Shown here: positions 1 to 40,029 of the stretch, piece by piece
Layout of the letters: each line of letters begins with the position of its first letter
How positions within the stretch are numbered: the first letter of the stretch is position 1
Source: Amycolatopsis vancoresmycina
Lineage (GTDB): Bacteria > Actinomycetota > Actinomycetes > Mycobacteriales > Pseudonocardiaceae
NCBI RefSeq assembly: GCF_000716785.1
Contig: NZ_JNYY01000016.1
Span: 179,259-243,258, forward strand
Reading direction: 5' to 3'
DNA length: 64,000 nucleotides
The notes under the pieces: model-generated
Told to the model about the DNA's origin: nothing
The model's input: the letters and a program-made list of their open reading frames with translations, nothing else
Database searches by the model: none
Made by a program: the position numbers and the translations under genes

Positions 1-3000
1 GGCCCAGGTACTCCAGCTCACCGCGCGCGGTCCAGCGCACGACGTCGCCGGTGCGGTACATCCGGGCGCCCGGCTCGCCGAAGGGGTCGGCGACGAACCG
101 GCCGGCGGTCAGGCCCGGCCGGCCGAGGTAGCCGCGGGCCACCCCGGCGCCGCCGAGGTGCAGCTCGCCGGGGACGCCGACCGGCACCGGCCGCATCCCG
201 GCGTCGAGGACGCAGGCGCGGAGGCCGGCGATCGGGCGGCCGATCGGCGGGGTGCGGTCGGTGTCGTGGTACCACGCGGTGGCGTACACAGTGGACTCGG
301 TGGGCCCGTAGATGTTGGCGATCCGGCTGCCGGGCAACGCCTTCCGGATGTCGTGCAGCGCGTGCAGCGTCAGCGCTTCGCCGGCCAGGACCACAGTGGA
401 CGGCCGGACCGACACCGCGCCCTGGGCCAGCAGCTGCGCGAACGCCGACGGCACGCCGCTGACCAGGCCGACCGGCCGGCCGGTGTCCTCGCCCTCGCCG
501 AGGGCCAGCACGTCCCGGACCACCTCGACGGTGGCGCCGGTCATCAGCGGCGCGAAGATCTCGAACACCGAGACGTCGAAGTTCAGCGACGTCGAAGCGA
601 CCACTGTGGACCCCGGCCGGAAGACGTCCCGGAAGTCGTTGCCCGCCCACGCCATCAGGTTCGCGGCGCTGCGGTGGGCGACCACGACCCCCTTGGGGCG
701 GCCGGTCGAGCCGGACGTGTGGATCACGTAGGCCGGGTGGTCCGGGTTCGTGGCGCGGCCGAGCGGCTCGCCGGAGCAGCCGTCGAGCAGGCCGGGGTCG
801 TCGAACGCCAAGGTGGGCACGGCGCCGGGACCGCGGCCGTCCGGCGTGAGCAGCAGGGCCGGGGCGGCGTCCTCGAGGATCAGTTCCTGGCGGTCGGCCG
901 GGTAGGCCGGGTCGACCGGGAGGTAGGCGGCGCCGGACTTGAGCACGCCGAGCAGCGCCACCAGGATCCGCTCGGTGCGCGGCAGCGAAACGGCGACGAA
1001 CCGCTCGGGCCCGGCACCCCGTCCGGCCAGGATCCGGGCCAGCCGGTTGGCCTGCTCGTCGAGCTCGGCGTAGGTGAGCGAGCGGCCCTCGCAGACGACG
1101 GCGACCGCGTCCGGCGTGCGGGCCGCCTGGGCCTCGAACAGCTGCGGCAGCGTGGCTTCCGGCGCGGCGGGCACCGGACCGCGGGAGAGCTCGGCGAGGT
1201 GGGCCAGCTCGGCGTCGCCCATGATCGGCAGCCCGGCCACCGGCCGGTGCGGCTCGGCGACCACGGCCGCGGCCAGCGTCCGCAGGTGCCCGGCGAACCG
1301 GTCGATCGTGGCGGCGTCGAACAGGGCGGTGTCGTACTCGATCGCGAAGCCGCGGCCCTGCGGCTGGAACTCCAGCACCAGGTCGAACCGGGCCCGGGGG
1401 CGGGGCAGATCGTGCTCGCCCAAGCGGAGGGCGCCCGCCTCCCGGGGCCGGACCAGGTCCTGCTGCAGCACCAGCAGGACCTGCACCAGCGGGGTCCGGC
1501 TCGGGTCACGGGCCGGCCGCAGGTCGTCGACGACCTGGTCGAAGGGCACTTCCGCGGCGGCGAAGGCCGCCAGCGTCGTTTCCCTGACCCGGCCGAGGAA
1601 GGTGTCGAACGGTTCTCCCCGGTCGATCGCGGACCGCAGGACGAGGGTGTTGACGAAGAAGCCGGCGAGCCGTTCGAGCTGGTCGTGGTCGCGGCCGGAC
1701 ACCGCGGTGCCGACGGCGACGTCGTCCTGCCCGGTGTAGCGGGCCAGCAGCACCTGGACGAGCGCGGTCAGCGTCGTGAACAACGTCGCCCCGGTGTCGT
1801 GGGCCAGCTCGGTGAGGCCGGCGGGCAGGTCGTACCGGCGGATCGCGCCTTCGGTGGCGCGCACGGGCGGGCGCGGCCGGTCGGTGGGCAGGTCCAGGGG
1901 CTCGAGCCCGGCGAGCTGCGCCCGCCAGTACGCCAGCTGCCGGTCGCGCAGCGGGCCGGCCAGCCGCTCGTGGTGCCAGCGGGAGTAGTCGCGGTAGCCG
2001 ATCTCCAGCGGGTCGAGCTTCTCCCCCGCGTACAGCGCGGCGAGCTCGTCGACGAGCAGGCCGACCGACCAGCCGTCGGTGACGATGTGGTGCTGGCTCA
2101 GCAGGAGCACGTGGTCTTCGGGGCCACGGCGGAGCAGCAGGGCACGCGTGAGCGGCCCGGTCCCCAGGTCGAACGGGCGGTCCAGCTCGGCCGCGAGCTG
2201 CCCGTCCAGGTCGGCTTCGGCCTCGGCCTCCCGCAGGGGGATGGTGCCCTCGTCGGCGACGACCTGGACGCCTTCGCCGTCGACGGTCCGGAACGTCGTC
2301 CGCAGTGACTCGTGCCGCGCGGCCAGCGCGTCGAGGCAGGCACGCAGCGCGTCGCGGTCCAGCGGGCCGGTGAGGGTGAGGCCGACACCGGCGTTGTACT
2401 CGGTGCTGCCGGGGTTCTGCCGGTCGAGCACCCAGAGGCGGCGCTGGACCGGCGACAGCGGCACCACGGCGTCGTGCGGCACGGACGCGATCCGGCCGGC
2501 GGCCGGGGTGTCACCGTCGGGCAGCAGCTCGGCGAGTTTCGCGATGGTGCGGGCGTCGAACACCACCCGCGGCGAGAGGTCGGCGCCGAACCGGGCGCGG
2601 ATCCGGGCGAGTGCGCGGGCGCCGAGGATCGAGTCGCCGCCGAGCTCGAAGAAGTCCGCGTCGACGCCGATGTCCGGGACACCCAGGACGTCGGCCCAGA
2701 TCTCGGCGAGGGCCCGCTCGGCCGGGGTCCGCGGCGGAAGGTGCGCGGCCTGCACCTGCGCCTGCCAGTCGGGTTCGGGCAGCGCGTCGCGGTCGAGCTT
2801 GCCGTGGTGGGTCAGCGGCATCCGCTCGAGCGGGACGATCGCGGCCGGGACCATGTAGGGCGGCAGCCGGTCGGCCGCGGCGGCGCGCAGCCGCGCCGGG
2901 TCGGCGTCTCCGGCGAAGTAGGCGACCAGGCGCTTGACGCGGTCCTCGCGGGCGACGACGACCGCCTCGCGGACACCGTCCTGCGCGAGCAGCAGCGCTT

Positions 3001-27168: not shown

Positions 27169-29157
27169 TCAGCCTTCGGTTCGCTGGGTGACGATCGTGG
27201 TCGGGGTCAGCTGCGCGGGCCGGCCGGCCATCGCCGCGGTCACCGCACCGACGCTGACGTCGAGCGCGAACGCCCAGCTGAACACCACGAGGATGTCGCC
27301 GAGTGTGCCGGTCCAGGCCGGTTCGAGCCAGCGGTAGGCGGCGAGCGACAGGACAACGGCGAGCACCGCGAAGCGCGCCAGGCCCACGGCCCAGCGAACG
27401 CCGGTGACGAGGACCTGACGCCGGCCCAGGGAGACCCGCGATCGCGCCACCGCGCGCCGCGCCGGGACGTGCAGCGCGGGCCGTGCCGGCGTCCCGGTGA
27501 AACCGGCGGCCGCCTCTGCGTCCGCTGACCGGCCGAGCTCGGTCACCCCCAGCTCCAGCAGTGCGGGAAGCTGAGCGGCGGCCGCGGAAAGGGGCAGGGA
27601 TCCGGCCAGCGCCGCGCGGACAGCGGCCGCGGCGGCCGCGCCCGGTGTGCGCTTGGCTTCCGGGAGGGCGGCGGCGAACACCTCGACGGCCTGCCCGAGC
27701 CGGTCGACGAGCTCGGCTTGCGCGTGCGCGGCGCCGTACGCGGCGGTCACCACAGCGGCGGACGAGGCGTCGGACGCGGGAGCGGTCAGCGCCGCCAGCT
27801 GACGAGCCCGGCCGGCGACCGGGCCGAACACGGGAGCGGGCCGGGCGGTGAGGACCTGCGCGAGCTGTCCTGCGCCCTCGGTGATTTCGTCCTGGTACTG
27901 GCGCGCGCTCCCGGCGATCAGGCCGACGTCCGTCTCGAGTTCGTCGAGCGCGGTCCGCGCACGGGAGAGGTTTCCGCGGTCCAGCAGCCCGTCGAGCTCG
28001 TCGAGGCGCTTCCGCGCCTTGGCCAGGAGGCCGGCCCACGGCACGGGTCCGGGCACCGGCCGATCCGGGCGCACCACCTTTTCGAGCTCGGGCAGGGCCG
28101 AGGCGACCTCCGCCAGTCCGGTGTCGAGTTCCTCGAGCGCGGTGTTGGCTCGGGTTTCGGCCTCGGTGACGAGGGTGTCCAGTTCTGCCGCCGGGCGCAG
28201 CAGCCACCGGCGGGACTTCGCGTCGAGGTCGGTGAGCAGGGCGCCGATTTCCCGGCGGAAGTGGTCGTCCTCCCGGCCGGCGGTCAGCTCTGCGAGCCGG
28301 GCGGCGAGCTCGGTGGCGCGGCCGGCGGCCGCGGCGCGGTCCTGCACGGCCACCAGGATCCGGCGGACGGACACCCCGGCGAACAGCCCCAGCAGGGCGA
28401 ACACCACGATCAGCGCCGGATCGCGCCGGGTGGTCACCCGGAACTGCACGGTCAGCGGCCGGGCCAGCTGCGCGGAGTCGAGCTGCACGGTGCGGGTCAC
28501 GGTCCCCAGCGGTGGCGTGCCGGTGATCCGGTACGGCAGCGTGAGCGCGGCCGGGCCGGTCACGGGCATGGCCGGGCCGGTGACCACGACCTGGTCGGCG
28601 CTGCTGTCCAGCCCGGTCACGAGGAGCTCGGTGATCCGCGTGTCGGGCCCGGCCCCGACGTGCAGTTCGGGCAGCTCCTCGCGGGTACCGCCGATGCCCC
28701 ACTCCGGGAACCACACGGTGCGCTTGACCTCGATCGCCGCCGTGGCCTGCAGATCGGCTCCTGGCCGCTTGAAGACGACGTCGACGAGTTCCGAACGCCC
28801 GCCGTCACCGACGGCGACCGTCGCCGTGTAGTCGCCGACGCGCTTCAGATCGTCGACGCGCACGTCGAAGCGCAGCGCCGGCACGGCGGGCTCGATCCGC
28901 ACGCCGATCGCCTGCATCGTCTCCGCCGGAACGGGCCTGCCGTCCCGCACGACCCGGACGACCCGGGCGGTGAGTCCCGTGACGGCGACCCCGGGTGCCG
29001 GGGTGAGCGGCAGCAGCACGACCGCATCGGCTTCGGCAGGCAGCGTCGCCGACGCCCCGGACGACAGCTCCACCAGGTCGTCCGCGCTCGCCGGGCCGGC
29101 CGCGAGCACCACGGCACCGATCGCGAACGCACCGGCGAGCAGGATCGACCGCCTCAT
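27169..29157 (-). CDS. Signal-peptide protein with an extracytoplasmic beta-rich domain, a TM helix, a long cytoplasmic coiled coil and two C-terminal TM helices (662 aa)
   Basis: The ATG at 29157 is preceded by GGAGG and overlaps the CHAT gene stop (ATGA). The signal peptide is MRRSILLAGAFAIGAVVLAAGPASA and the TM helix is ALIVVFALLGLFAGVSV. The coiled-coil region of about 330 aa is rich in Ala, Leu, Glu and Arg. The upstream part of the track ORF (to 29940) is junk. Confidence 0.6.
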   Translation of the reverse strand: MRRSILLAGAFAIGAVVLAAGPASADDLVELSSGASATLPAEADAVVLLPLTPAPGVAVTGLTARVVRVVRDGRPVPAETMQAIGVRIEPAVPALRFDVRVDDLKRVGDYTATVAVGDGGRSELVDVVFKRPGADLQATAAIEVKRTVWFPEWGIGGTREELPELHVGAGPDTRITELLVTGLDSSADQVVVTGPAMPVTGPAALTLPYRITGTPPLGTVTRTVQLDSAQLARPLTVQFRVTTRRDPALIVVFALLGLFAGVSVRRILVAVQDRAAAAGRATELAARLAELTAGREDDHFRREIGALLTDLDAKSRRWLLRPAAELDTLVTEAETRANTALEELDTGLAEVASALPELEKVVRPDRPVPGPVPWAGLLAKARKRLDELDGLLDRGNLSRARTALDELETDVGLIAGSARQYQDEITEGAGQLAQVLTARPAPVFGPVAGRARQLAALTAPASDASSAAVVTAAYGAAHAQAELVDRLGQAVEVFAAALPEAKRTPGAAAAAAVRAALAGSLPLSAAAAQLPALLELGVTELGRSADAEAAAGFTGTPARPALHVPARRAVARSRVSLGRRQVLVTGVRWAVGLARFAVLAVVLSLAAYRWLEPAWTGTLGDILVVFSWAFALDVSVGAVTAAMAGRPAQLTPTTIVTQRTEG

Positions 29158-31001
29158 GAGGCCTCCAGGACGACGTCGGCCGAGCCGAAGGCGACGAACG
29201 CCAGCGCCGGCACCTGTTTCTCCGCGAGGAGGTGCTGCCGGGCCGCCTGCATGGCCGCTCCGACGCTGGCCCCGCTCCCGGCGAGCGTGGCGACCAGGCA
29301 CCGGGCGAACTGGCGGGCGTGATCGGTCATGATCACGCATTCGGTCGCGACCACCCCGCTGGCCCCGACCGCGGTCAGCGCCGAGACGTGGTTGGTGAGG
29401 TTGCCGGGAAGCAGCACGCCCGAGCCGCAGGCCAGCAGCAGGATCAGCGGCGACGGCGCGGTCCACGACCCGGAGACGACCCGCTGTTCGGTGATCATCC
29501 GCGGGGTCAGCCGGATTTCGGCGGTGCCGCAGTCGATCTCCTGCGTGTCCGCGTCGTGGTGACCGAGGATGGTGACGACGGGCGCGCGGTCCCCCGGGTC
29601 CCACAGCAGGGACAGCAGCCGGTGTTCCTTCCCGAGTTTCCGCGGCGCACCGATCGCGGCCAGGTCCGAGACCAGGCCGGTCACCTCGGCGTCGACGACG
29701 CCCAGCGCGAGGTCGACCTTGAGCTTGCCGCGGTGGGGTACGAGGTGGCGGGCGAGGTCGCCGGACCCGTCGAGGCGTTCCTCGACCTGGTGGCGCACGC
29801 CCCAGAAGCCGCGGGCGCAGATCACCCGGCTTTCGCGGTGGTGGCCGCACCGCTTCCCCGAGCCGGGCGGGTCGAATCCCCAGCACACGGGTCCTTCCGG
29901 AGGGCCCGCCGGCAGGAGCCAGTCGTACAGCAGGGTCCACGGCACGGAGTGGTGCCGCTCCGCGCGGGTGATCTGGATGATCTCGTCGGATCGGAGGGTC
30001 AGCTCGCGAAGCGGCTCCCCCGCCGCACCGGGCAGTTCGCCGAACAGCGCCGCCCAGACCGCCCAGCCGCCCTCGGCGAGGGCGCGCAGGGCCGCGTCCG
30101 GCCCGAGCGTTCCCCGGGCCGCGTCCGTCATCGTGTCGCGCAGCGCGGGGAGGACCCTCGTCCGCACGTCGTCGTTCACCGGGAAGTGGAACACGGTTCC
30201 GGTGGACTTGACGAACACCCGGTGCCGGCCGTCACCGGCGTCCGCGTTGACGACCAGCGAAACGTACCGCGGCCGGAAGTCGGCCACATTGGCCCACGCC
30301 GTCGTCGCGGAGTACTCCAGCCGGGCCGCGGTCACCTCTTCGTCGAACCACTGCTCCCGTTCCCCGACCCGGGCGACCAGCCGGTAGGTCTGGATCAGGT
30401 TGTCCCGGTGCAGGACGTTGACCCGCACCCACGCCTCGCCGGGCTCGGCGGGTGCGCGCAGCTCGAAGACGACGGTCTCGGACGGCCCGGCCGGGGGCAG
30501 CCGCAGCGGCCGCACCGGCGGACCGTCCACGGTGAACCCGCCGGTGTAGATCACCACTTCCAGTTCGTGCCCCGACGCGGAATCCGGCAGCAGCGGGTCG
30601 ATGCCCGGTTGCGGCCCGCGTACCACCGACCACGGCGACCGGCCGCCGATCCGCGCGTCCAGCAGGTACTGCCCGCCTGCCTGCAGCGCGCACCGGTCGC
30701 CGACGAAGGGCGTCTTTTCGGCCGCCTCGATGCCGGCACCGCGGCGGAGGGTCAGGTCGAAGACCCGCGGCGGGTCCGGAAAGATGTACTTCCAATCGAA
30801 TTCGATTCTGTTGTACCGCGCCCGCGGGAAATCCCTCCGGAGCAGCACATCCGCGCTCAGCAGCCCGACGACCGCGGGCAGCGCAGCCAGCACCAGCAGC
30901 CACACGAGTTGCGCCCGGCCCGCTTCGACCAGGACGGCGGCAAGGACGAAGGCCAGCGTCGTCACGACAGCGACCAAGGCCTGCAGCCAGCGGATGCGCA
31001 C
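29154..31001 (-). CDS. Membrane-anchored CHAT-domain (caspase-like, clan CD) peptidase
   Basis: The N-terminus has 2 TM helices (LQALVAVVTTLAFVLAAVLV, LVWLLVLAALPAVVGLLSA). The C-terminal CHAT domain has a catalytic His in ILGHHDAD and a Cys in LILLLACGSGV. It is followed by the typical CHAT tail ALTAVGASGVVATECVIMTDHARQFARCLVATLAGSGASVGAAMQAARQHL. Confidence 0.75.
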   Translation of the reverse strand: MRIRWLQALVAVVTTLAFVLAAVLVEAGRAQLVWLLVLAALPAVVGLLSADVLLRRDFPRARYNRIEFDWKYIFPDPPRVFDLTLRRGAGIEAAEKTPFVGDRCALQAGGQYLLDARIGGRSPWSVVRGPQPGIDPLLPDSASGHELEVVIYTGGFTVDGPPVRPLRLPPAGPSETVVFELRAPAEPGEAWVRVNVLHRDNLIQTYRLVARVGEREQWFDEEVTAARLEYSATTAWANVADFRPRYVSLVVNADAGDGRHRVFVKSTGTVFHFPVNDDVRTRVLPALRDTMTDAARGTLGPDAALRALAEGGWAVWAALFGELPGAAGEPLRELTLRSDEIIQITRAERHHSVPWTLLYDWLLPAGPPEGPVCWGFDPPGSGKRCGHHRESRVICARGFWGVRHQVEERLDGSGDLARHLVPHRGKLKVDLALGVVDAEVTGLVSDLAAIGAPRKLGKEHRLLSLLWDPGDRAPVVTILGHHDADTQEIDCGTAEIRLTPRMITEQRVVSGSWTAPSPLILLLACGSGVLLPGNLTNHVSALTAVGASGVVATECVIMTDHARQFARCLVATLAGSGASVGAAMQAARQHLLAEKQVPALAFVAFGSADVVLEAS

Positions 31002-31103
31002 CGCTCCTCACCTCCCGCCACACGCGGTCACAAGGGTGAGTCGCGCGTGCGCCGGACGGCGTAACCGGGTCAGCCTCACACTTCGATCACGAAAGCGGCC
31101 GGC

Positions 31104-32897
31104 CTACTCCCCGGCCACGCCGTCCCCGTTCTCGATCGGCTTGGGCTGGTCCTGCCGGGGCAGCGTCTTGGTGCCGTCCCGCTGGGCTCCCCAGTCCTTG
31201 AGCACGTCCAGGATCTGCGCGGCCGGCATGACCCGGAGCAGGGCGTCGACGCTGTCGCTGCCGCCCCCGCCGCTGATGATCTGCGGGACCTGCGCCTTGG
31301 CGTACTGCGCCAGCACGCGCTCGACCCCGACGTACTCCGGCCCGAGCTGCTCGGCCAGCACCTTCACCTTGACGTACTTCAGCTTCTCGCGTTCCTCCTC
31401 GACCTTCACCCGCATCATCTCGATCTCGGCGAGCACCTTCTCGTTCTTCTTCTCCGCCTCGAGCTCGGCGAGCCGGGCGTTCGCCAGGGCGATCGCCTGT
31501 TCCTGCAGGGACACCCGCTTGCGGCGCTCGTTGATCTCCGGGTCGTCGCACTCGAACTCTTCGAGGTTCGTGCTCGTCGCGATGACCCCGATCGGGGCCA
31601 GCGCCTGCCGCACCTCACCCGTGAGGTCGTTGCAGAGCTCGTTGTACTTGGTGATGAAGTCGAGGATCGTCCGCTCGCCCGAAACCCGCCGGAAGTAACC
31701 GTCCACAGTGGACACCAGGACCTTCTCGACGAGCTGCTTCACGGTGGCCAGCCCGCCGATGTCCTTCGTCGTGCCGAACCGGAGGACCAGCTGCGGGGCC
31801 ACCTCCCGCGGGATCTGCACGGTCTGCTTCATGTCGAGGCGGACCGTGTGACCCTGCACGTTCAGCACGATCTGGTCGAGGGAGGCGTCCAGGTTGTCGT
31901 CGGACTTCTTGTGCTTCGACCACTCCAGGATCAGCTCGCGCGTCGGGATCCGGACGACGTGGGCGAACCAGGGGTTGAGGGAATAGCGCCCGGAGTCGTG
32001 CAGGGTCTCCTGCTGGACGCCCTTCCGGCCGCCGCCGGCCAGGAAGACCCACGGTTCCTGGAAGCTGTGGTGCCCGGGCACCGGCGGCGCCACCGACGAG
32101 CGGTTGCCGGGGCCTTCGACACCCACGTGCGTCACGACGACGCCGGTTTCGGCGACCTCGAGCTTGATGTCGCGCAGGTCCGCGAGGTCGATGCCCTCCC
32201 GCTCGGCCACTTCCGGCGTTTCGACGGTGATGACCTCGAACATCTCGGTGTTGATGTCGTAGTGGCCGCCGGTGAGGATCTGCTGCTGCGGCCCCTGTTC
32301 GCCACCGCCGGCGAGGAAGCTGACACCGTCCCGGAAGAAGTCGCACTCGACGTGCTTGGCCAGCTGGCTGCCGGGCGCCCGGATCCCGCCGACCTTGGCC
32401 TTGACGACGCCGATCGTCCCGTCCGGGACGCGGGTCCGCGGCACGGTGACGACGTCGAACAGCTCGGTGTTGATCTCGTAGGTGCCGCTGGTGAGGACCT
32501 GCTGCTGGGCCCCACGCTCGCCGCCGCCGGCGAGGAACGTGACGCCGTCCCGGAAGTCGTCGCACTCCACGTGTCTCGGCAGGGAGCCCTTCACCCGGCA
32601 GTTCCGGTCGACCTTGGCCTTGACGATGCCGACCATCCCGTCCGGCACGGTGACCCGCGGCACGGTCCGGACTTCGTGCAGGAAAGGCATCAGCCAGGTG
32701 CGGCTGTTGGACCGGAGCGTCCGTGCCTGGACGCCCCTTCCCCCGCCGACGCTCACCGCCGAGTCGTCGTCCCCCTCGGCCCGCCGGCCGAATTTCCGGA
32801 CGACGATCCCGACTTCCCCGGCGGGAACGGTGTGCAGCCCGGCCACCCCGAGGTACCCGGCGGCGGCGAGCAGCACGATGAGAACCACGAATTCCAC
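31104..32897 (-). CDS. SPFH/band-7 (flotillin/YqiK-like) membrane protein with three N-terminal repeats and a C-terminal coiled coil
   Basis: The GTG at 32897 is preceded by GGAG. It has an N-terminal TM helix (EFVVLIVLLAAAGYLGVAGL). There are three repeats of about 75 aa, each containing FLAGGGExGxQQQ. The coiled coil is rich in Glu, Ala and Lys (LQEQAIALANARLAELEAEKKNEKVLAEIEMMRVKVEEEREKLKYVKVKVLAEQ). The start lies 1 nt after the stop of the cyclase-like gene (TGAcGTG). Confidence 0.6.
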   Translation of the reverse strand: MEFVVLIVLLAAAGYLGVAGLHTVPAGEVGIVVRKFGRRAEGDDDSAVSVGGGRGVQARTLRSNSRTWLMPFLHEVRTVPRVTVPDGMVGIVKAKVDRNCRVKGSLPRHVECDDFRDGVTFLAGGGERGAQQQVLTSGTYEINTELFDVVTVPRTRVPDGTIGVVKAKVGGIRAPGSQLAKHVECDFFRDGVSFLAGGGEQGPQQQILTGGHYDINTEMFEVITVETPEVAEREGIDLADLRDIKLEVAETGVVVTHVGVEGPGNRSSVAPPVPGHHSFQEPWVFLAGGGRKGVQQETLHDSGRYSLNPWFAHVVRIPTRELILEWSKHKKSDDNLDASLDQIVLNVQGHTVRLDMKQTVQIPREVAPQLVLRFGTTKDIGGLATVKQLVEKVLVSTVDGYFRRVSGERTILDFITKYNELCNDLTGEVRQALAPIGVIATSTNLEEFECDDPEINERRKRVSLQEQAIALANARLAELEAEKKNEKVLAEIEMMRVKVEEEREKLKYVKVKVLAEQLGPEYVGVERVLAQYAKAQVPQIISGGGGSDSVDALLRVMPAAQILDVLKDWGAQRDGTKTLPRQDQPKPIENGDGVAGE

Positions 32898-32898
32898 G

Positions 32899-34080
32899 TC
32901 ACCACTCCGATTTCCGCAGCTGTCCGTGAACGGCCATGATCATGGACGCCCACTCGTCGTGCCATTCCGGATGTGTTTCGCGCTCCGGATTGCGCAATGT
33001 CGGGTAGAACGGCCCGCCCGCCTCCGCCCGCCGCGTGAACGCGGGATACGGGGGCGAAACCTCTTCCTGGTCCGCGCGCCAGCCGATCCGCACGCACACC
33101 TCGCGGAATTCGCGGCGCTTGGACAGTTCCAGGCCGGCCAGCCGCTGGTGCTGGGCGCGGAATCCCCAGGTGCCGCCGGAGGTGTCCGCCCACGCGGCGT
33201 CCAATTCGGTGATCAGCGCAAGCGGGAGCCGGGCGCCGTCCGACGCGCGCAGCCATCCGCTGCGGCCGCGGCCTGCCGCTTCGGCCAGCACCAGCGTGGT
33301 CACCGTGTCCGCGTGGTCGACTTCGCCGTCCTCGAGGAGTTTCCGGATCTGCCGCACCCGGTCCGTGAGCGCCGGATCCAGTCCGGGTTCGGGCTCCGGC
33401 GGCGGCGTCGCGGGCGGCGGCGACGTGCGTGCGGGCGCCGGCTCGGGCCGTTTCGGGAACGGGATCCGGAAGGGCTCGGCCCGGGTCTCGGGCGGCCGCG
33501 GCGGGAGCGCCGAAACCCCTGGTACGTGGAGGTATGCGGGTTCCCGGAATTCCTTGACCTCGATCCGGACCGGCCGGAACTGCCCGGGCCGCAGCCCACC
33601 GAGCCCCGATCCGACGACCTTCCGGTAAACCGGGCCGGAGATGATCTGCGCGAGGTGCGCGCGGGGATTCTCGTCCAGCGCGGCCCGCAGCGGCTTCGAG
33701 TCGAGCAAGCGGGCGGTGATGATCGAAGCCGGCCCGGCCCAGCCGAGCGGGCCGGCGGTCATGACATCGCTGTGCATGGCGACGCGCAGCCGGATCCGCA
33801 TTTCCGGTTCGTGATCTTCGTTGTGGTCCGCGAGCCGGATGTCCAGTTCGTTGACGAACCCGCGGACGACCGCGATCAAATCCACGTCGGGCGGCACCAT
33901 CGCCAGTTCGCCGTCGCCGCCGGGCTGCCGGTCCCACCGGTCCCGGCCGATTCCCGCGCTCTCCGCCGCCTCCCCCAGAATTCGATCGAGTTCCCGCTGC
34001 AGCACGACGTGCCTTCGGACGGGCCGGTCACTGTACTTCTGGATGTCGACTCCGAGCACGAAACGTTCGAAGAGAGACAC
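32899..34080 (-). CDS. Palm-domain nucleotidyl-cyclase-like protein (class III AC/GC-GGDEF superfamily) with a C-terminal domain of unknown function
   Basis: The GTG at 34080 is preceded by CAGGAGGT (VSLFERFVLGVDIQKYSDR). The metal-binding Asp residues are in GVDIQ and in QPGGDGELAMV, and the sequence IRLRVAMHSDVMTAGPLGWAGPASIITARLLDS matches the class III lrvGihtGpvvaGviG..y.v.GdtVNlAaRle pattern. The C-terminal domain of about 140 aa (GTWGFRAQHQRLAGLELSKRREFREVCVRIGW...WHDEW) is unassigned and may be GUN4-like. The longer track ORF (to 34647) has an Arg-rich junk leader. Confidence 0.55.
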   Translation of the reverse strand: MSLFERFVLGVDIQKYSDRPVRRHVVLQRELDRILGEAAESAGIGRDRWDRQPGGDGELAMVPPDVDLIAVVRGFVNELDIRLADHNEDHEPEMRIRLRVAMHSDVMTAGPLGWAGPASIITARLLDSKPLRAALDENPRAHLAQIISGPVYRKVVGSGLGGLRPGQFRPVRIEVKEFREPAYLHVPGVSALPPRPPETRAEPFRIPFPKRPEPAPARTSPPPATPPPEPEPGLDPALTDRVRQIRKLLEDGEVDHADTVTTLVLAEAAGRGRSGWLRASDGARLPLALITELDAAWADTSGGTWGFRAQHQRLAGLELSKRREFREVCVRIGWRADQEEVSPPYPAFTRRAEAGGPFYPTLRNPERETHPEWHDEWASMIMAVHGQLRKSEW

Positions 34081-34202
34081 GCAACCTCCTGCGCGGCGCC
34101 CCGACCGCTCGAACCGACGAGAGTGACCGGCCCGACAATACTCCCTTCGAATGCCGCTTCTGTGCCAGAAGGCACACAAGCAATAGTTTTTTTCCGCAAG
34201 CG

Positions 34203-34793
34203 TTACTCTTCCACGGCGCGGCCGGCGTTCGCGCGAAGAACGGGCATCGCCAGATCGTCGACGACGTGTTCGGCGAATCCCTCGTCCAGCGGCAGCCGCC
34301 ACAGCCACCGCATGAACATCACCGACGCGACGACCTCTTCGAACAGCCCGGCGTCGGCCGGGCCGGGCAGTTCCCCCCGTTCGACGGCCCGGCCGACCGC
34401 CTCCGCCGGGAGCCGCGCGCCGCTGGAGAACCGGGCCTCGAGCTCGTCGACGAGCTCCGGGTCGGCGGCGCGGGCCTGCACGAGGCCGACCGCGAGCCGG
34501 CCGTCGAACCCGGTGAGCACGTCGGCGAAGCGGCGGGTGTGGGCGAGCAGGTCGCCGCGGAACGTGCCGGTGTCGACGGTCCACTCGGTCTGCGTGCCGT
34601 GGTAGCGGGCCATGGCGGCGACGGTGATCTCCCGCTTGTTGCGCCACCGGCGGTAGATCGTGGCCTTCGACGTGCCCGACCGGGCGGCGACGGCGTCGAT
34701 CGTCATCGACACGTACCCGGCCTCGGCCAGCAGCTCCAGCACGGCGTCGAGGATGCGGGCGTCCCGGGTGGGATCCAGGGGGCGAACACTCAT
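34203..34793 (-). CDS. TetR-family transcriptional regulator
   Basis: The HTH is ILDAVLELLAEAGYVSMTIDAVAARSGTSKATIYRRWRNKREI. It is divergent from the ADH gene. Confidence 0.8.
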   Translation of the reverse strand: MSVRPLDPTRDARILDAVLELLAEAGYVSMTIDAVAARSGTSKATIYRRWRNKREITVAAMARYHGTQTEWTVDTGTFRGDLLAHTRRFADVLTGFDGRLAVGLVQARAADPELVDELEARFSSGARLPAEAVGRAVERGELPGPADAGLFEEVVASVMFMRWLWRLPLDEGFAEHVVDDLAMPVLRANAGRAVEE

Positions 34794-35912: not shown

Positions 35913-38885
35913 TCACGGCAGCAGATCGGGACAGATCTGCCTCGTCAGGGCGAGCAGATCCGCCTTTTCCTCGATCTCCGGGCCGTCGGCGCGCAGCAGT
36001 TCCCGCACCGTGCGGTCCACCATCGACGGCGGCAGCCGGTCGCGCAGGATCCGGAGCTGGTTCAGGAAGAGCACGCGGAACCGCCGGCGCGTTTCGTGGT
36101 CGTAGGGCGCGAAACCGTGCACGGCGTGTTTCAGGCAGGGGAAATACGCGGCCGCCAGCTCGTCGGCACCGGCTCCGCTCCCGGACTTGAGCCAGAGGGT
36201 GATCAGCGCGTTCGCGGGCGAAAGGGGTCGCGCGTCGCCGAAGCCGTAGAACGTGGTGATCATGTTCCCGTAGCCGTCCGCGAACGGCGCCAGTGCGTGG
36301 ACCGCGGTGTCGCCTTCGACGCTGCACAGGAACTCGATCTCCGACGCGAGCGTGTCGAAGGAGAACCGGATCCACCCGCGGTAGCTGTCCTCCCCGATCG
36401 GCTCGGCGTTCGGCTGGAACCGGTAGGACCAGTAGAGGTCGATGTCCGGCTCCGGGGCCTCGGACCGGGCCGCCCCGTTCGTGACCCGGACGACTCTCCT
36501 GCCGTCCTGCCGGCCGCGGAACAGCGTCAGCGCCTCGACGAGTCCGTGCCGTCCTTCGGCGGACAGCTGGGCGGCCCACAGCGTCGCGGTCTTCGTCCAC
36601 TCCCGGACGGGATGCTCGACATCGGGGAAGAGCTGGTCGGTCGTGACCTCGAACGGCGGTCCTGTGACCAGCAGCAGGCACAGGTTCGCGGAATACCGGG
36701 CACAGCGCGCGGGCACCAGGACCCGGTCCGGCCGGTAGCCGGAAAGGGTGGAGTCCCTCGGCAGCAGCGCGGCGCGGAACAGCGTCAGGAGGGTGTCGTA
36801 CACCGGGCGGAAGCGCGGCGCCGCCAGCTCGGCCACGATACTGCCGATGAAGGCGGGCACGGTCTTCCGGTCCGTGAGCGAGGCGAACGACAGCAACGCG
36901 TGGAAGAAGTCGTCGTTGTCGCGCCGCCCTTCGGCGAGGGCCAGCAGTTCCCGCACGGTGAGCCGGGCGATGAGGTACTCGCCGAACGTCGGGTGCATGA
37001 ACTCGTACGTCCGCAGGCGGAGGTGCTCGTCCTTGCGGGCCTGCGCGGTGTGGATGAAGTAGAAACTGCTGATCACCACCCTGGCACTGGCCTCCCCCAC
37101 CGGCAGCGCGGCGAGATCGGCGTCGAGCTCCGCCGCGGTGACCCACTGCCGGCCGCGGTTGAACATGGCGAACGCCGCGACCGACAGCCGGACCAGCTCC
37201 CCTTCGACCAGCCGCGTCACCTCCTCGTCGGGCTCGTCCGCGTGCTGCTTGAGCACCTCCCGCCGCGCGAACCCGGTCAGCAGGCCCTCGTAAAGCTGCA
37301 CCTGCCCGATGGCGTCCCCGTGCTCCGCGAGCGGGCACTCGGTGCGGTCGTAGATCGCCAGGAGCAGGAGCAGCAGGGGCTGGCGGGCCAGCTCGGCGTG
37401 CGGCCGCAGGACGTCGACGGTGAGCGCCGTGCCGTTGAGGCGGCGCCACGGGCCCAGCCACTGCTCGATCTGCTCGTCGTCGAACGGTTCGAGCAGCAGG
37501 CTGACCATTCCGCCGACCGGCCGGGCCCGGTCGGCCACCGACACGCGGCTGGTGACGATCACGACGACCGGGTGCTGCAGATCGGCCTCCCGCTGCTGGA
37601 ACCGGGCCAGCCGCTCGAGGAAGTCGGACTGGCTCGTGTTCGTCGCCTGCAGGAGTTCGTCGAACCCGTCGAGCAGGATCACGGGCACCGCGTCACCCGC
37701 CGAGCGGGCGACCTCGCGCCAGGGCAGCTGCTCCCCGGTCGAGATGCGGAGCCCCTGCTCGATCTGGGTCTGCACGTCGCTGTCGGCGGAAACCTCGCGC
37801 AACGGGACCGGAACGGCCAGGAAGTCGCCGGCCGGCAGCCGCGCCGCGAGCACTTTCGCCAGCATCGACTTCCCCGACCCCGGCTGGCCGAGGACGACGA
37901 GGGGCGCCTCGGTGGCCGACGGCGACGTCAGGTGCCCGATCAGGAACTCCTGCAGGTCGGTGCGGACGGGCTGGCCGTCCCACCACCCTTCGTCGGCGAT
38001 GTTTTCGTTCCCCACCTCGGCGGCGACCCGGAAGCGGGGGTTCACGTAGGCCTCGGCGACGGTGGGCAACCGGATGCCGGCCGGGGTCGCCGGCAGCAGC
38101 GGCCGGGACAGCACCGCCTCGTGGAACCGCGCCAGCCTCGCCCGCCGGTCGTCGGGGGTCCGCCCGGACGCGATTTCCGACAGCACCCGGGTGACCCCCG
38201 CCAGGCCGGCCCGCAAGCGGCGGAGCTCGGCCGTGACCGCCTGGTGGTCGGCCCGGCCCGCCCAGAAGGCGACCTCGGGGAAATCGCCGGCCAGGCGCCG
38301 GAACATGTCCTCGTACGTCGTGACCGCCTTGGCCGTGGCTTCGCCGAGCACCGCCGTTTCGGTGGCCCGCCTGCCCCGCTCGTCCAAGCGGTCCCACCCG
38401 GCCAGCCCGGTGAGGAATTCCAGCACCTCGCCCGCCATCCGGGTGTAGTGGCCGGCCAGGGCTTCGATCGTCTGCTCGTAGGACCGGTGCGGCGCCAGCA
38501 CGGGCGCCGGTGTGCGCAGCAGTGCGGTGGTGAACCGGTCCGGCGGGGTGAGCCCGAGGCCGGCGAGGTCGAAGGGCAGGCGAACCGACGCCACGGCGTC
38601 GAAGAACGCCGCCACCACGATGACGCTGTGCGCGGCGGACAGCTGTTCGCCGCGTTCCACCCGGCTGCTGCCGCGCAGCCGTGTGCTCAGCCGGGACACC
38701 AGTTCGCCGGTCAGCCGGCAGAATCCGGACTCCGCGTCGAACAGGCTCACCGCGACCGCGGACCCGGTGGCGGACAACGCGAACAGGGCACCGCCGGTCA
38801 GCTGGTCGAGGGCGGTCACCACCTTGTTCGGTGCCCCGCCACTCAGCACCAGCACGGCGTCCGCGTAGCTCATAGCCCTCGACAT
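35913..38885 (-). CDS. NACHT-family STAND NTPase (bacterial NLR-like) with an N-terminal helical domain of about 340 aa and a C-terminal helical sensor-like region of about 500 aa
   Basis: The ATG at 38885 is preceded by GGAGGTGG (MSRAMSYADAVLVL). It has Walker A VVLGQPGSGKSMLAKVL, Walker B VILLDGFDELL and the downstream IVTSR. I see no TPR or WD40 repeats. The track ORF start at 39047 adds 54 improbable residues. Confidence 0.8.
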   Translation of the reverse strand: MSRAMSYADAVLVLSGGAPNKVVTALDQLTGGALFALSATGSAVAVSLFDAESGFCRLTGELVSRLSTRLRGSSRVERGEQLSAAHSVIVVAAFFDAVASVRLPFDLAGLGLTPPDRFTTALLRTPAPVLAPHRSYEQTIEALAGHYTRMAGEVLEFLTGLAGWDRLDERGRRATETAVLGEATAKAVTTYEDMFRRLAGDFPEVAFWAGRADHQAVTAELRRLRAGLAGVTRVLSEIASGRTPDDRRARLARFHEAVLSRPLLPATPAGIRLPTVAEAYVNPRFRVAAEVGNENIADEGWWDGQPVRTDLQEFLIGHLTSPSATEAPLVVLGQPGSGKSMLAKVLAARLPAGDFLAVPVPLREVSADSDVQTQIEQGLRISTGEQLPWREVARSAGDAVPVILLDGFDELLQATNTSQSDFLERLARFQQREADLQHPVVVIVTSRVSVADRARPVGGMVSLLLEPFDDEQIEQWLGPWRRLNGTALTVDVLRPHAELARQPLLLLLLAIYDRTECPLAEHGDAIGQVQLYEGLLTGFARREVLKQHADEPDEEVTRLVEGELVRLSVAAFAMFNRGRQWVTAAELDADLAALPVGEASARVVISSFYFIHTAQARKDEHLRLRTYEFMHPTFGEYLIARLTVRELLALAEGRRDNDDFFHALLSFASLTDRKTVPAFIGSIVAELAAPRFRPVYDTLLTLFRAALLPRDSTLSGYRPDRVLVPARCARYSANLCLLLVTGPPFEVTTDQLFPDVEHPVREWTKTATLWAAQLSAEGRHGLVEALTLFRGRQDGRRVVRVTNGAARSEAPEPDIDLYWSYRFQPNAEPIGEDSYRGWIRFSFDTLASEIEFLCSVEGDTAVHALAPFADGYGNMITTFYGFGDARPLSPANALITLWLKSGSGAGADELAAAYFPCLKHAVHGFAPYDHETRRRFRVLFLNQLRILRDRLPPSMVDRTVRELLRADGPEIEEKADLLALTRQICPDLLP

Positions 38886-39021
38886 CCCGCCACCTCCACC
38901 CGGTAGTCGGCGGGACACGGGGCGGTGTTGCGGTATTGCGGCTTCCGGTCCGGCGGGGGTTCCCGCATTACCCCCTTGACGCGCGCCGCCACCCGGTACG
39001 GTGCGCTCGCAGGAGGTACGC

Positions 39022-40029
39022 ATGCCCTCGATCCGCGACGTCGCCAAGCAGGCTCAGGTCTCCACGGCCACGGCTTCCCGGGCCCTGCGCGGGCTTCCCG
39101 CGGTGACCGCCGAGACGCGGGCGCGAGTCGAACGCGTGGCCGCCGAACTCGGTTACGTCATCCCGTTCAACGCCTCGAGCCTCGCTTCGGGCCGGACCAA
39201 TTCCGTCGGGATCGTGGTGCCGTTCGTCTCCCGGTGGTTCTTCGGCACGGTGGTCGCGGGTGCGGAGACCGTGCTGCGCGAAGCCGGCCTGGACCTCGTC
39301 GTGTACGGGGTGCCGGGCGCGCCGAGCCGGGAACGGTTCTTCGCCGAGCTGCCGGTGCGGCGGCGGGTCGACGCGGTCCTCGTGCTGTGCCTGCCGCTGA
39401 CCCGGTGCGAGGCCGACGCCCTGCTGGCGCTCCGGATCCCGGTGGTCCTCGTCGGCAGCACCGCCGACGGCATCTCGTCGGTGCGCATCGACGACGTCGC
39501 CTCCTCGGCCCGGGCGGTGCGGCACCTGGTCGAGCTCGGGCACCGCCGGATCGGGCTGCTCGGGGAAAGCGACCCGCCGCCCCACGGGTTCACCACGCCC
39601 GGCCTGCGCCGCAACGGCTACCTCCGGGTCCTGGCCGAAGCGGGCATCGAACCCGACCCGGACCTGGAGGTGGCCGGCCGGTTCACCGCCACCGAAGGCG
39701 AAGCCGCGATGGCCCGCCTGCTCGCCCGGCGGAACCCGCCGAGCGCGGTGTTCGCGATGTCCGACGAGATGGCGTTCGGCGCGCTGCAGGCCCTGCGCCG
39801 GGCCCGGGTCGACGTCCCCGGCGGCATGTCGGTCATCGGCTTCGACGACCACGAGCTGGCGGCCGCCCTCGACCTTTCGACGATCGCGCAACCGGTCTTC
39901 GCCCAGGGGGAACGCGCGGCCGGGCTCCTGCTCGACCAGCTGCGGCGGCAGGCCCCGCCCGCGGACGTCGTGCTCCCGACCGAGCTGGTCCGCCGGGGCA
40001 CCACCGGACCGGCGGCCGCGCTGAACTGA
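39022..40029 (+). CDS. LacI-family transcriptional regulator
   Basis: The ATG at 39022 is preceded by AGGAGG. The HTH is SIRDVAKQAQVSTATASRALRG and a periplasmic-binding-protein-like sugar-binding core follows. Confidence 0.85.
   Translation: MPSIRDVAKQAQVSTATASRALRGLPAVTAETRARVERVAAELGYVIPFNASSLASGRTNSVGIVVPFVSRWFFGTVVAGAETVLREAGLDLVVYGVPGAPSRERFFAELPVRRRVDAVLVLCLPLTRCEADALLALRIPVVLVGSTADGISSVRIDDVASSARAVRHLVELGHRRIGLLGESDPPPHGFTTPGLRRNGYLRVLAEAGIEPDPDLEVAGRFTATEGEAAMARLLARRNPPSAVFAMSDEMAFGALQALRRARVDVPGGMSVIGFDDHELAAALDLSTIAQPVFAQGERAAGLLLDQLRRQAPPADVVLPTELVRRGTTGPAAALN

What the first reader, a model, noticed from the sequence alone, without database searches (positions are those of the whole stretch)
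35913..38885. Bacterial NACHT (NLR-like STAND) NTPase with uncharacterised N- and C-terminal domains
The protein has canonical Walker A (GQPGSGKS) and Walker B (ILLDGFDEL) motifs. An N-terminal helical domain of about 340 aa could be an effector. A C-terminal region of about 500 aa has no obvious TPR or WD repeats. bNACHT proteins of this size have been shown to protect against phages. This one sits among other protease-centred candidate defense modules and is divergent from a LacI regulator.
Basis: partly seen in the sequence, partly recalled or inferred. Interest (0 to 1): 0.6.

Follow-up and report, generated by a model that had tools for sequence, protein, structure and literature searches.

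The report
Actinomycete NNH7-NACHT NLR-like ATPase gene
This is an intact gene for a bacterial relative of animal NOD-like immune receptors, from a catalogued but never tested family of filamentous actinomycetes, so it is a sound but fairly ordinary candidate immune sensor.

Summary
Window 35913-38885 (-) encodes an intact 990-aa protein, identical to RefSeq WP_162146236.1 ("NACHT domain-containing protein", Amycolatopsis vancoresmycina). It has Walker A GQPGSGKS and Walker B ILLDGFDEL, which carries the NACHT D[GAS]hDE signature.

- The N-terminal domain is already named (NNH7), though its function is unknown.
- The NACHT module runs to about aa 651, or about 785 with an HD2-like part.
- That leaves a private C-terminal domain of about 200 aa, not 500.

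The family has at least 538 species loci and 665 50%-identity clusters. It is confined to mycelial actinomycetes, has one fixed architecture and has no conserved partner gene.

Neither the window nor the family's neighbourhoods are defence islands, and the LacI adjacency is incidental. In Micromonosporaceae the gene sits at a fixed spot between glnA and glnE, yet diverges far faster than its flanks. The gradient is steep: NBD-WHD 75%, C-terminal tip 32%, with dN/dS below 1.

Best reading: an ATP-driven STAND switch with a fast-evolving C-terminal sensor and an NNH7 output domain, probably immune. The defence role and the effector mechanism are untested. It is a new member of a known kind.

The parts
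35913..38885 (-). Complete CDS, 990 aa plus stop: NNH7-NACHT STAND NTPase (= WP_162146236.1)
   Evidence: ORF and GC3 0.92. 100% match to the A. vancoresmycina protein. Full-length alignment to 40-101 homologues.
38893..38897 (-). Shine-Dalgarno-like GGAGG, 7 nt upstream of the ATG at 38885
   Evidence: Read directly from the sequence. No sigma-70-like promoter or intrinsic terminator was found by the simple scan.
38250..38879 (-). NNH7 (NACHT N-terminal helical domain 7), aa 3-212; presumed output or effector-adaptor domain
38733..38801 (-). Conserved, uncharged L/A/G-rich segment inside NNH7 (aa 29-51, GGALFALSATGSAVAVSLF)
   Evidence: Conserved in the family alignment. pLDDT is below 50 in both AF2 models. 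Kyte-Doolittle 19-aa mean is 1.58, borderline and no higher than buried helices elsewhere in the protein. Role unknown.
38034..38249 (-). Helical linker, aa 213-284, including the conserved DHQATR loop (aa 213-218)
   Evidence: AF2 secondary structure. H214, T217 and R218 are at least 95% conserved in 101 sequences.
37434..38033 (-). P-loop nucleotide-binding domain of the NACHT module, aa 285-484
37866..37889 (-). Walker A, GQPGSGKS (aa 333-340)
   Evidence: Translation. G333, Q334, P335, G336, G338, K339 and S340 are at least 95% conserved.
37653..37679 (-). Walker B, ILLDGFDEL (aa 403-411); D406-G-F-D-E410 matches the NACHT signature D[GAS]hDE
   Evidence: Translation. D406-L412 are invariant in the family. 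The signature is as defined in Kibby et al..
37545..37556 (-). Candidate sensor-1 motif, VTSR (aa 444-447)
   Evidence: V444, T445 and R447 are at least 95% conserved. The motif sits at the end of strand 441-447 in the AF2 model. Equating it with the TSR sensor-1 of animal NLRs is my inference.
37245..37418 (-). Helical domain 1 (HD1), aa 490-547
36933..37229 (-). Winged-helix domain (WHD), aa 553-651, with wing hairpin 611-629 and the invariant motif EF-H-TFGE-L (aa 628-638)
   Evidence: AF2. E628, F629, H631, T633, F634, G635, E636 and L638 are at least 95% conserved. Its resemblance to the ADP-contacting His motif of animal NLR WHDs is my inference.
36531..36911 (-). HD2-like helical domain, aa 659-785
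   Evidence: AF2 helices. Foldseek alignments to NOD2, NLRC4 and NLRP3 span 560-630 columns, beyond NBD-HD1-WHD. The tool does not print which residues align, so the HD2 assignment is an inference. No Pfam hit.
35916..36530 (-). Family-private C-terminal domain, aa 786-990 (beta-hairpin 786-803, disordered loop 804-842, helical bundle 843-984); presumed sensor
   Evidence: AF2. It is the most variable part of the protein: entropy about 2.0 against 0.9-1.0 for the NBD. Median identity among syntenic Micromonosporaceae orthologues is 32%, against 75% for NBD-WHD. No match in Pfam, the PDB or elsewhere in the window.

Best explanation
The gene encodes a stand-alone NLR-like STAND switch of the NACHT clade.

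Shown:
- It has a complete NACHT module (P-loop NBD, HD1, winged helix, HD2-like part) with intact catalytic motifs.
- An N-terminal all-helical NNH7 domain precedes the module and a private C-terminal domain of about 200 aa follows it.
- The gene is under purifying selection.
- Divergence rises steeply towards the C-terminus.

Inferred from how characterised STAND/NLR proteins work (NLRC4, NLRP3, Avs, bNACHT):
- In the resting state the protein is a closed, ADP-bound monomer.
- The fast-evolving C-terminal domain binds a trigger. Most likely this is a phage protein or a phage-induced change in a host protein.
- Binding releases the winged-helix lock, ADP is exchanged for ATP, and the NACHT modules oligomerise.
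- Oligomerisation clusters the N-terminal NNH7 domains, which deliver the output.

No conserved partner gene exists, and NNH7 has no enzyme-like fold or motif. I therefore take the output to be non-enzymatic and proximity-induced. It would act through a clustered helical bundle on the membrane, or by recruiting a host protein encoded elsewhere, and would stop growth or kill the infected hyphal compartment (abortive infection). The switch part is well supported. The immune role is moderately supported. The effector step is a guess.
For: NACHT identity:
- Pfam NACHT above threshold and NNH7 at E=1e-58.
- D[GAS]hDE Walker B.
- The Foldseek top 26 are all NLRs.
- AF2 model: pLDDT 78.5, pTM 0.70.

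Functional gene: dN/dS is 0.14-0.61 in all domains of 4 close orthologue pairs. 148 positions are at least 95% conserved in 101 sequences.

Sensor-like C-terminus:
- Among 15 syntenic Micromonosporaceae orthologues the whole protein has a median identity of 58%. Flanking NadE, PanB, GlnE and GlnA have 84-95%.
- By domain: N-terminus 60%, NBD-WHD 75%, aa 652-785 52%, aa 786-990 32%.
- dN/dS for aa 786-990 exceeds that of NBD-WHD in all four pairs, marginally in one (0.21-0.56 against 0.14-0.29).
- This is the pattern Kibby et al. describe for the C-terminal domain of the antiphage bNACHT01 clade.

Self-contained system:
- Clustering neighbours in 81 loci gives no universal neighbour.
- There is no paralogue or shared N-terminal module in the window.
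- NNH7 is found only at the N-terminus of this one architecture.

Accessory behaviour in the window's own lineage: the three closest relatives lie in three different contexts, two of them next to other STAND genes. Copies occur on giant Streptomyces linear plasmids, and there are three copies in Nonomuraea gerenzanensis.

Precedent: diverse bNACHT proteins protect E. coli from phage, and this needs the Walker A lysine.
Against: - No member of this family has been tested. I found no paper on NNH7.
- The protein matches no PADLOC or NCBIfam antiphage NACHT model beyond the P-loop.
- The window is not a defence island.
- Only about 10-12 of 197 distinct genes within three genes of 60 family loci hit any PADLOC model at E<=1e-10, and about half of those hits are to generic models.
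- In Micromonosporaceae, Actinoplanes and Actinomadura the gene keeps a fixed chromosomal position among housekeeping genes. That is atypical for defence genes.
- dN/dS never exceeds 1, so positive selection on the sensor is not shown.
- Its hydrophobic segment is no more hydrophobic than buried helices elsewhere in the protein. The membrane idea therefore has no positive support.
- No homologue is found in phage genomes. This is neutral.
Confidence: 0.55

Rival explanations
1. A non-immune signalling STAND. The protein would be a chromosomally fixed ATP-dependent switch of mycelial actinomycetes. It would sense an endogenous cue such as stress, nutrient status, or hyphal damage or compartment death during development. 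Like MalT or AfsR, it would use STAND mechanics for regulation rather than defence.
For: - It holds a fixed syntenic position between type I glnA and glnE, next to nadE and panB, in 15 Micromonosporaceae loci. Other genus-level syntenies occur in Actinoplanes, Actinomadura and Streptomyces.
- It is under purifying selection throughout.
- It has one invariant architecture, with no effector swapping.
- Its neighbourhoods are not enriched in defence genes.
- It is absent from phages and occurs only on giant linear plasmids.
- Its distribution is limited to filamentous actinomycetes.
- Only 198 of 589 prokaryotic STAND clades were classed as defence-associated in a systematic survey.
Against: - No DNA-binding or other signalling output domain is detectable.
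- The protein evolves about three times faster than its flanks, and its C-terminal tip falls to 24-32% identity between species of one family. That is unusual for a sensor of a conserved endogenous ligand.
- In the window's own lineage the gene is not syntenic and is patchy.
- Paralogues and plasmid copies exist.
Confidence: 0.27
2. An immune NLR whose NNH7 domain is only an adaptor. After oligomerisation it would recruit and activate a separately encoded executioner located elsewhere in the genome, for example a caspase-like or other protease such as the caspase-HSP70 fusion 7 kb away. This would resemble CARD or EAD domains.
For: - NNH7 is non-enzymatic and helical.
- Adaptor-type N-terminal domains are a recognised class in bacterial NACHT proteins.
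- The window holds a caspase(C14)-HSP70 fusion at 45677-48208.
Against: - No protein in the window shares any similarity with NNH7 (tblastn E>=2.9).
- No partner gene recurs next to the family.
- NNH7 is not seen at the N-terminus of any other kind of protein among the best 150 of 665 matches, whereas EAD and Death-like adaptors occur on both receptor and effector.
- The closest relatives lack a nearby caspase.
Confidence: 0.13
3. Not a NACHT protein at all. It would be a generic AAA+/Cdc6-ORC-like or transposition-type ATPase, or a decaying pseudogene, whose Walker motifs misled the reader.
For: - The Pfam NACHT score is modest (33 bits), and AAA_22, AAA and AAA_16 hit the same stretch.
- Sequence profiles find no PDB relative beyond the P-loop.
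Against: - The D[GAS]hDE signature is invariant.
- 39 of 40 members pass Pfam NACHT at E<=0.01.
- The frame is intact and dN/dS is below 1.
Confidence: 0.03

Closest known systems
Pfam PF22738 NNH7-containing NACHT proteins of actinomycetes (RefSeq 'NACHT domain-containing protein'; JGI 'NACHT conflict system protein')
   Same: The protein is a member. It has a full-length NNH7 match (E=1e-58), the same NNH7-NACHT-C-terminal architecture and the same length. It is 40-77% identical to hundreds of homologues.
   Different: Nothing structural differs. The window's copy belongs to a small Pseudonocardiaceae subgroup (63-77% identity) that is about 48% identical to the bulk of the family and is not syntenic. 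The family has no experimental characterisation that I could find.
Antiphage bacterial NACHT proteins (bNACHT01 clade 14 and others; Kibby et al., bioRxiv 10.1101/2022.07.19.500537, later published in Cell)
   Same: It shares the NACHT module with the D[GAS]hDE Walker B. It is a single-gene system. It has a short, non-repeat C-terminal domain that diversifies much faster than the NACHT module, comparable to the SNaCT domain of bNACHT01.
   Different: - It has no match to the PADLOC or NCBIfam antiphage NACHT models.
- bNACHT01 has no N-terminal domain, whereas this protein has a 284-aa helical one.
- NNH7 is absent from their preprint table, which lists NNH1-6 only.
- Clade membership is untested. 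A Nonomuraea protein with 'NACHT 266..682' in their clade 7 is a lead only.
- There is no phage assay.
Animal NLRs (NLRP3, NOD2, NLRC4/NAIP)
   Different: Identity is 12-15%. There is no LRR sensor and no PYD, CARD or BIR domain. Sequence searches do not connect them beyond the P-loop.
Avs (antiviral STAND) proteins such as SeAvs3
   Different: Avs proteins carry enzymatic N-terminal effectors and large TPR-like sensors that bind phage terminase, portal or capsid proteins. Here the effector is non-enzymatic and the sensor is a small helical domain. The NTPase is closer to NACHT than to Avs.
Plant CC-NLR resistosomes (ZAR1) and fungal HeLo/HET-S-type NLR outputs (my own knowledge, used as an analogy for how a helical N-terminal domain can kill)
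   Same: A helical, non-enzymatic N-terminal domain sits on a STAND NTPase with no partner gene.

Membership tests
NACHT clade of STAND P-loop NTPases | Walker A GxxxxGK[ST] | tested here: met
   GQPGSGKS at aa 333-340, conserved in at least 95% of 101 homologues.
NACHT clade of STAND P-loop NTPases | Walker B with the D[GAS]hDE signature (as stated by Kibby et al.) | tested here: met
   D406-G407-F408-D409-E410, invariant in the family.
NACHT clade of STAND P-loop NTPases | Match to the curated NACHT profile above its gathering score | tested here: met
   PF05729: 33.4 bits against a cut-off of 26.7, aa 329-476 covering profile positions 3-159 of 167. 39 of 40 members match at E<=0.01.
NACHT clade of STAND P-loop NTPases | NBD-HD1-winged-helix fold closest to known NACHT modules rather than other AAA+/STAND groups | tested here: met
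NACHT clade of STAND P-loop NTPases | Conserved histidine motif in the winged-helix domain that contacts ADP in the resting state (known from NLRC4 and NOD2 structures; my own knowledge) | tested here: inconclusive
   An invariant EF-H631-TFGE-L motif follows the wing hairpin. No residue-level alignment to an NLR could be obtained, because sequence searches do not reach them.
NACHT clade of STAND P-loop NTPases | NTP binding or hydrolysis and ligand-induced oligomerisation | not testable with these tools
   Needs biochemistry.
NNH7-NACHT family (Pfam PF22738) | Full-length match to the NNH7 profile at the N-terminus, followed by a NACHT module | tested here: met
   NNH7: 199 bits against a cut-off of 27, aa 3-212 covering profile positions 2-224 of 225. 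The same architecture is seen in the listed matches that are long enough to be full-length.
Experimentally validated antiphage bNACHT / NLR-like systems (PADLOC, NCBIfam EruA) | Match to a model of a validated antiphage NACHT protein | tested here: not met
   PADLOC gives only P-loop-length hits (mad8 E=0.015, IetA 0.06). NCBIfam EruA scores 15 bits against a cut-off of 1000.
Experimentally validated antiphage bNACHT / NLR-like systems (PADLOC, NCBIfam EruA) | C-terminal region diversifying faster than the NACHT module | tested here: met
   Median identity is 32% for aa 786-990 against 75% for aa 285-651 among syntenic orthologues whose flanks are 84-95% identical. However, dN/dS stays below 1.
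Experimentally validated antiphage bNACHT / NLR-like systems (PADLOC, NCBIfam EruA) | Location in defence islands or next to known defence genes | tested here: not met
   About 10-12 of 197 distinct neighbours (three genes either side, 60 loci) hit any PADLOC model at E<=1e-10. The window's neighbours are metabolic or regulatory genes.
Experimentally validated antiphage bNACHT / NLR-like systems (PADLOC, NCBIfam EruA) | Protection against phage on expression, dependent on the Walker A lysine | not testable with these tools
Avs (antiviral STAND) families | Enzymatic N-terminal effector plus a TPR-like sensor that binds phage core proteins | tested here: not met
   No nuclease, protease, Sir2 or TPR domain was found. 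Avs3 is a weaker structural match than the NLRs.
STAND transcription regulators (MalT/LAL, AfsR/SARP type) | DNA-binding output domain (LuxR-type HTH or SARP) | tested here: not met
   No such Pfam or NCBIfam domain occurs in this protein or in 40 relatives.

The most novel reading that the evidence does not exclude
NNH7-NACHT proteins could be a lineage-wide NLR of mycelial actinomycetes that is resident in the core genome. In some families it is held at one chromosomal site, glnA-glnE in Micromonosporaceae, while its small C-terminal sensor turns over rapidly. Its NNH7 domain would be a previously unrecognised non-enzymatic death or arrest effector triggered by clustering. That would make it a bacterial counterpart of the fixed-locus, fast-evolving NLR and het genes of plants and filamentous fungi. 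It might act in compartment-level sacrifice of hyphae, or in self/non-self discrimination, rather than as a mobile defence-island gene.
Probability: 0.15. Interest if true: 0.65.

Novelty: new member of a known kind. Interest (0 to 1): 0.3.

Why it matters
Bacterial NACHT proteins are the presumed ancestors of animal and fungal NLRs, but those tested so far come mostly from enterobacteria and were assayed in E. coli. This family is large: at least 538 species loci, and 665 clusters at 50% identity. It is confined to multicellular, antibiotic-producing actinomycetes and has an output domain of unknown mechanism and a small, fast-evolving sensor.

If it is a defence gene, it would matter for actinophage biology and for strain engineering. 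NNH7 would then be a new effector type. If it is not, it would be a clear example of a NACHT switch used for something other than immunity.

For this window, though, the practical result is modest. The gene is already correctly named in RefSeq, and nothing in its sequence or setting is unexpected.

Tried and rejected
1. Looked for a conserved partner gene. I called genes in 81 homologous loci and clustered 758 neighbour proteins. Only lineage-specific synteny emerged, with no universal neighbour.
2. Tested the LacI link. The window's LacI is 30-35% identical to the LacI genes near 6 homologues, so the adjacency is incidental.
3. Looked in the window for a shared N-terminal adaptor module or a paralogue with tblastn. 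There was none.
5. Tested the idea that aa 29-51 is a transmembrane or membrane-inserting helix. The hydrophobicity is borderline (median 1.58) and equals that of buried helices in the NACHT module, so the idea is not supported.
6. Sequence-profile searches of the PDB with the whole family and with HD1-WHD alone found nothing beyond the P-loop.
7. Pfam on 40 members found nothing for the C-terminal region.
8. Looked for positive selection with pairwise Nei-Gojobori dN/dS by domain in 4 close pairs. All values are below 1, and pairwise averages cannot detect site-specific selection.
9. Tried to place the protein in the published bNACHT clades. NNH7 and the accession are absent from the preprint's Table S1, and the supplement of the 2026 STAND survey is not held.
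10. The promoter, terminator and inverted-repeat scans were uninformative in this high-GC DNA.
11. The phage collection had no hit. The plasmid collection had hits only on giant Streptomyces linear plasmids, plus one chromosome filed as a plasmid.


Full report
**1. Observation**

The window is 68-76% GC throughout, so long ORFs occur in all six frames. Codon-position GC singles out the frame 35913..39053 (-), with GC1/2/3 of 0.72/0.50/0.92. The 936-aa antisense ORF 36096..38906 (+) does not pass the same codon-position GC filter and is a composition artefact.

The upstream part of the frame, from a TTG at 39047, overlaps the divergent LacI gene. The ATG at 38885 has a GGAGG 7 nt upstream. It gives a 990-aa product that is residue-for-residue RefSeq WP_162146236.1, 'NACHT domain-containing protein', Amycolatopsis vancoresmycina. 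The GenBank entry EOD65395.1 starts four codons later. Homologues align over 100% of the length, so the gene is intact.

**2. Anatomy**

Pfam gives NNH7 (PF22738, 'NACHT N-terminal helical domain 7') at aa 3-212 with E=1.3e-58. It gives NACHT (PF05729) at aa 329-476 with 33.4 bits, above the gathering score of 26.7, plus the usual overlapping AAA models.

An AlphaFold2 model built on 40 homologues has pLDDT 78.5 and pTM 0.70. Its secondary structure gives this layout:
- aa 1-284: helices only.
- aa 285-484: a beta-alpha P-loop core.
- aa 490-547: a helical domain (HD1).
- aa 553-651: a winged helix with a wing hairpin at 611-629.
- aa 659-785: further helices.
- aa 786-803: a beta-hairpin.
- aa 804-842: a disordered loop.
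- aa 843-984: a helical bundle.

The Walker B D406-G-F-D-E410 fits the D[GAS]hDE signature that Kibby et al. give as diagnostic of NACHT. An invariant VTSR (444-447) and an invariant EF-H631-TFGE-L motif after the wing look like the sensor-1 and the winged-helix histidine motifs of NLRs. I could not confirm this residue by residue, because sequence searches do not reach any solved NLR beyond the P-loop.

The boundaries change, however. The N-terminal part is 284 aa, of which 212 are a named domain. The truly unassigned C-terminal domain is about 200 aa (786-990), or about 330 aa if the HD2-like part is counted. It is not 500.

**3. The two flanking domains**

Two stretches are conserved yet poorly modelled: an uncharged L/A/G-rich segment at aa 29-51 and a DHQATR loop at 213-218. 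I tested whether aa 29-51 could be a membrane helix. Its 19-residue Kyte-Doolittle mean has a family median of 1.58, the same as the most hydrophobic buried helix in the NACHT part, so there is no positive evidence.

A phmmer search of 1.84 billion cluster representatives with aa 1-284 gives 665 hits at E<=1e-3 and 419 at E<=1e-10. Among the 150 listed, the domain starts at or within a few tens of residues of residue 1, except in a few short entries that look truncated. The proteins are mostly 950-1170 aa, and the shorter entries are probably contig fragments. NNH7 is therefore not a shuffled module. It belongs to one fixed architecture.

The C-terminal domain has no Pfam match in any of 40 members, no PDB sequence match and no similarity to anything else in the window.

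**4. Family and distribution**

The word-indexed search returns 1626 proteins at E<=1e-5. The 120 listed are almost all about 1000-1050 aa with NNH7. Two are 690-700-aa truncated forms without it. Where named, they come from Amycolatopsis, Lentzea, Kutzneria, Streptomyces, Actinoallomurus, Nonomuraea, Cryptosporangium and Micromonosporaceae.

The window's protein is 77, 72 and 63% identical to its three nearest relatives and about 48% identical to the bulk of the family, including other Amycolatopsis species.

Copies occur on five giant (0.44-0.71 Mb) Streptomyces linear plasmids. Nonomuraea gerenzanensis has three copies. No phage genome has one.

**5. Genomic setting**

In the window the neighbours are a convergent Zn-dependent alcohol dehydrogenase and a TetR on one side, and a divergent LacI and an amidohydrolase on the other. 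The rest of the window holds an NRPS, hydrolases, CotH, two GH43 enzymes, MurJ and acyl-CoA carboxylase subunits. GC content is even. It is not a defence island.

The only conflict-type genes are a caspase(C14)-HSP70 fusion 7 kb away, and a group made up of a GUN4-domain ORF, an SPFH gene and an unknown gene, whose nearest member lies 1.3 kb away. Unrelated genes lie in between.

The three nearest relatives lie in three different contexts:
- A. oliviviridis: between a photolyase-related gene and an NB-ARC/TPR gene.
- A metagenomic Amycolatopsis-like contig: among HTH_31/DUF397 genes and two other STAND genes.
- Lentzea: among glycoside hydrolases.

Clustering the 758 neighbour proteins of 81 loci shows no universal partner. 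The LacI link is incidental. Of 197 distinct genes within three genes of 60 loci, about 10-12 hit any PADLOC model at E<=1e-10: LmuA, IetA, AriA, capP, mad2/3 and WYL once or twice each, and the rest generic. That is little or no enrichment.

**6. An unexpected regularity**

In 15 Micromonosporaceae loci (Micromonospora and Plantactinospora) the gene sits at one position, in the order nadE - panB - glnA - (DUF350) - NACHT - ... - LD-carboxypeptidase - amidotransferase - glnE. NCBIfam confirms NAD+ synthase, PanB, type I GlnA and GlnE above their cut-offs. Actinoplanes, Actinomadura and some Streptomyces groups have syntenies of their own.

Yet the protein diverges much faster than its flanks. 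Its median pairwise identity is 58%, against 84% (NadE), 86% (PanB), 85% (GlnE) and 95% (GlnA). The divergence is graded along the protein: N-terminus 60%, NBD-HD1-WHD 75%, aa 652-785 52%, and aa 786-990 32% with a minimum of 24%. Identity of the NACHT protein correlates only moderately with that of the flanks (Spearman 0.49).

In four close pairs, dN/dS is below 1 everywhere: 0.14-0.29 for NBD-WHD and 0.21-0.56 for the C-terminal domain. The gene is therefore functional. Its C-terminal tip is either under relaxed constraint or under diversifying selection at a subset of sites, and pairwise averages cannot tell which.

The conservative module with a fast C-terminus is the pattern reported for the antiphage bNACHT01 clade.

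**7. Mechanism**

The NTPase switch is well founded on fold and motifs. By analogy with NLRC4, NLRP3, Avs and bNACHT proteins, the variable C-terminal domain is the likely trigger-binding part, ATP-dependent oligomerisation is the likely transduction step, and the N-terminal NNH7 domain is the likely output.

No partner gene is conserved, and NNH7 is helical and motif-poor. The most economical output is therefore a proximity-induced, non-enzymatic one, acting on the membrane or by capturing a host protein. This last step is inference without direct support.

The main rival is a non-immune signalling role. It draws on the fixed chromosomal position, the single architecture, purifying selection and the lack of defence neighbours. 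It is weakened by the absence of any DNA-binding or signalling output domain, by the very fast C-terminal divergence, and by the patchy, non-syntenic distribution in the window's own lineage.

**8. Comparison and novelty**

The protein is a member of the NACHT clade and of the Pfam NNH7 family. All sequence and fold criteria that I could test were met.

It is not a demonstrable member of any experimentally validated antiphage NACHT family. There is no PADLOC or NCBIfam model match. NNH7 is absent from the preprint's domain table. A possible relative in clade 7 could not be tested. I found no paper that tests an NNH7 protein.

It works like an NLR. Whether it defends against phage is open. The gene is already correctly named in RefSeq, so it is a new member of a known kind. 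The points that go beyond the annotation are the corrected domain map, the single fixed architecture, the lack of defence-island context, and the fixed-locus but fast-evolving behaviour in Micromonosporaceae.

**9. Verdict**

Interest is 0.3. It is a solid but unsurprising candidate whose family would repay one well-designed experiment in an actinomycete host.

Noticed in passing
window 45677-48208 (-): An 843-aa ORF fuses an N-terminal caspase-like Peptidase_C14 domain (aa 77-289, E=5e-20; weak NCBIfam hit to 'caspase, EACC1-associated type') to an HSP70/DnaK-like ATPase domain (aa 355-735, E=3e-50). It is a conflict-system-like architecture, 7 kb from the NACHT gene with unrelated genes in between.
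   Followed up: partly
window 29154-34647 (-): Three co-oriented, nearly abutting ORFs lie here. One has a GUN4 domain (32899-34647 frame, E=2e-11; coding signal only up to about 33900). One is a 597-aa protein with a C-terminal SPFH/Band-7 domain (31104-32897). One is a 615-aa protein with no Pfam or NCBIfam hit (29154-31001). GUN4 is described as cyanobacterial in origin, so its presence in Amycolatopsis is odd.
   Followed up: partly
loci L026-L028, L031, L033, L040, L045, L047, L051, L058, L061, L063, L069, L071, L074 (match at 8001-~10900): In Micromonosporaceae the NNH7-NACHT gene occupies a fixed slot between type I glnA and glnE, beside nadE and panB. It is only 58% identical between species whose flanks are 84-95% identical, and its last 200 aa fall to 24-32%.
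   Followed up: yes
L082 and L083 (8001-10982 and flanks): The closest relative (77% identity, metagenomic contigs) is flanked within 8 kb by two other STAND genes: an HTH_31-nSTAND1-WD40 protein of about 1275 aa, and an AAA_16/TPR protein. An HTH_31/DUF5753 + DUF397 pair is also present. This looks like a local cluster of STAND genes, unlike the window.
   Followed up: no
P0009 and P0010 (homologues, 690-700 aa): Two proteins are 74-78% identical to the window's protein but cover only about 70% of it and lack NNH7. One is from Amycolatopsis sp. NPDC024027. They may be natural N-terminally truncated alleles, or they may have mis-called starts.
   Followed up: no
P0038 (homologue, 1162 aa): One family member carries an extra cyclic-nucleotide-binding domain (PF00027) in addition to NNH7 and the NTPase. 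It is the only architectural variant seen among the 120 listed.
   Followed up: no
H2, NZ_LT559118.1 (Nonomuraea gerenzanensis, 11.85 Mb): A record filed in the plasmid collection is evidently a chromosome. It carries three separate copies of the family, so paralogous expansion occurs in some genomes.
   Followed up: no
window 2-4423 (-): An NRPS module (A-T-C domains plus the start of a second adenylation domain) runs off the window's start. The window therefore lies next to a secondary-metabolite cluster.
   Followed up: no
window 17152-18867 (-): A 572-aa ORF with a coding-type GC3 of 0.88 has no Pfam or NCBIfam match.
   Followed up: no
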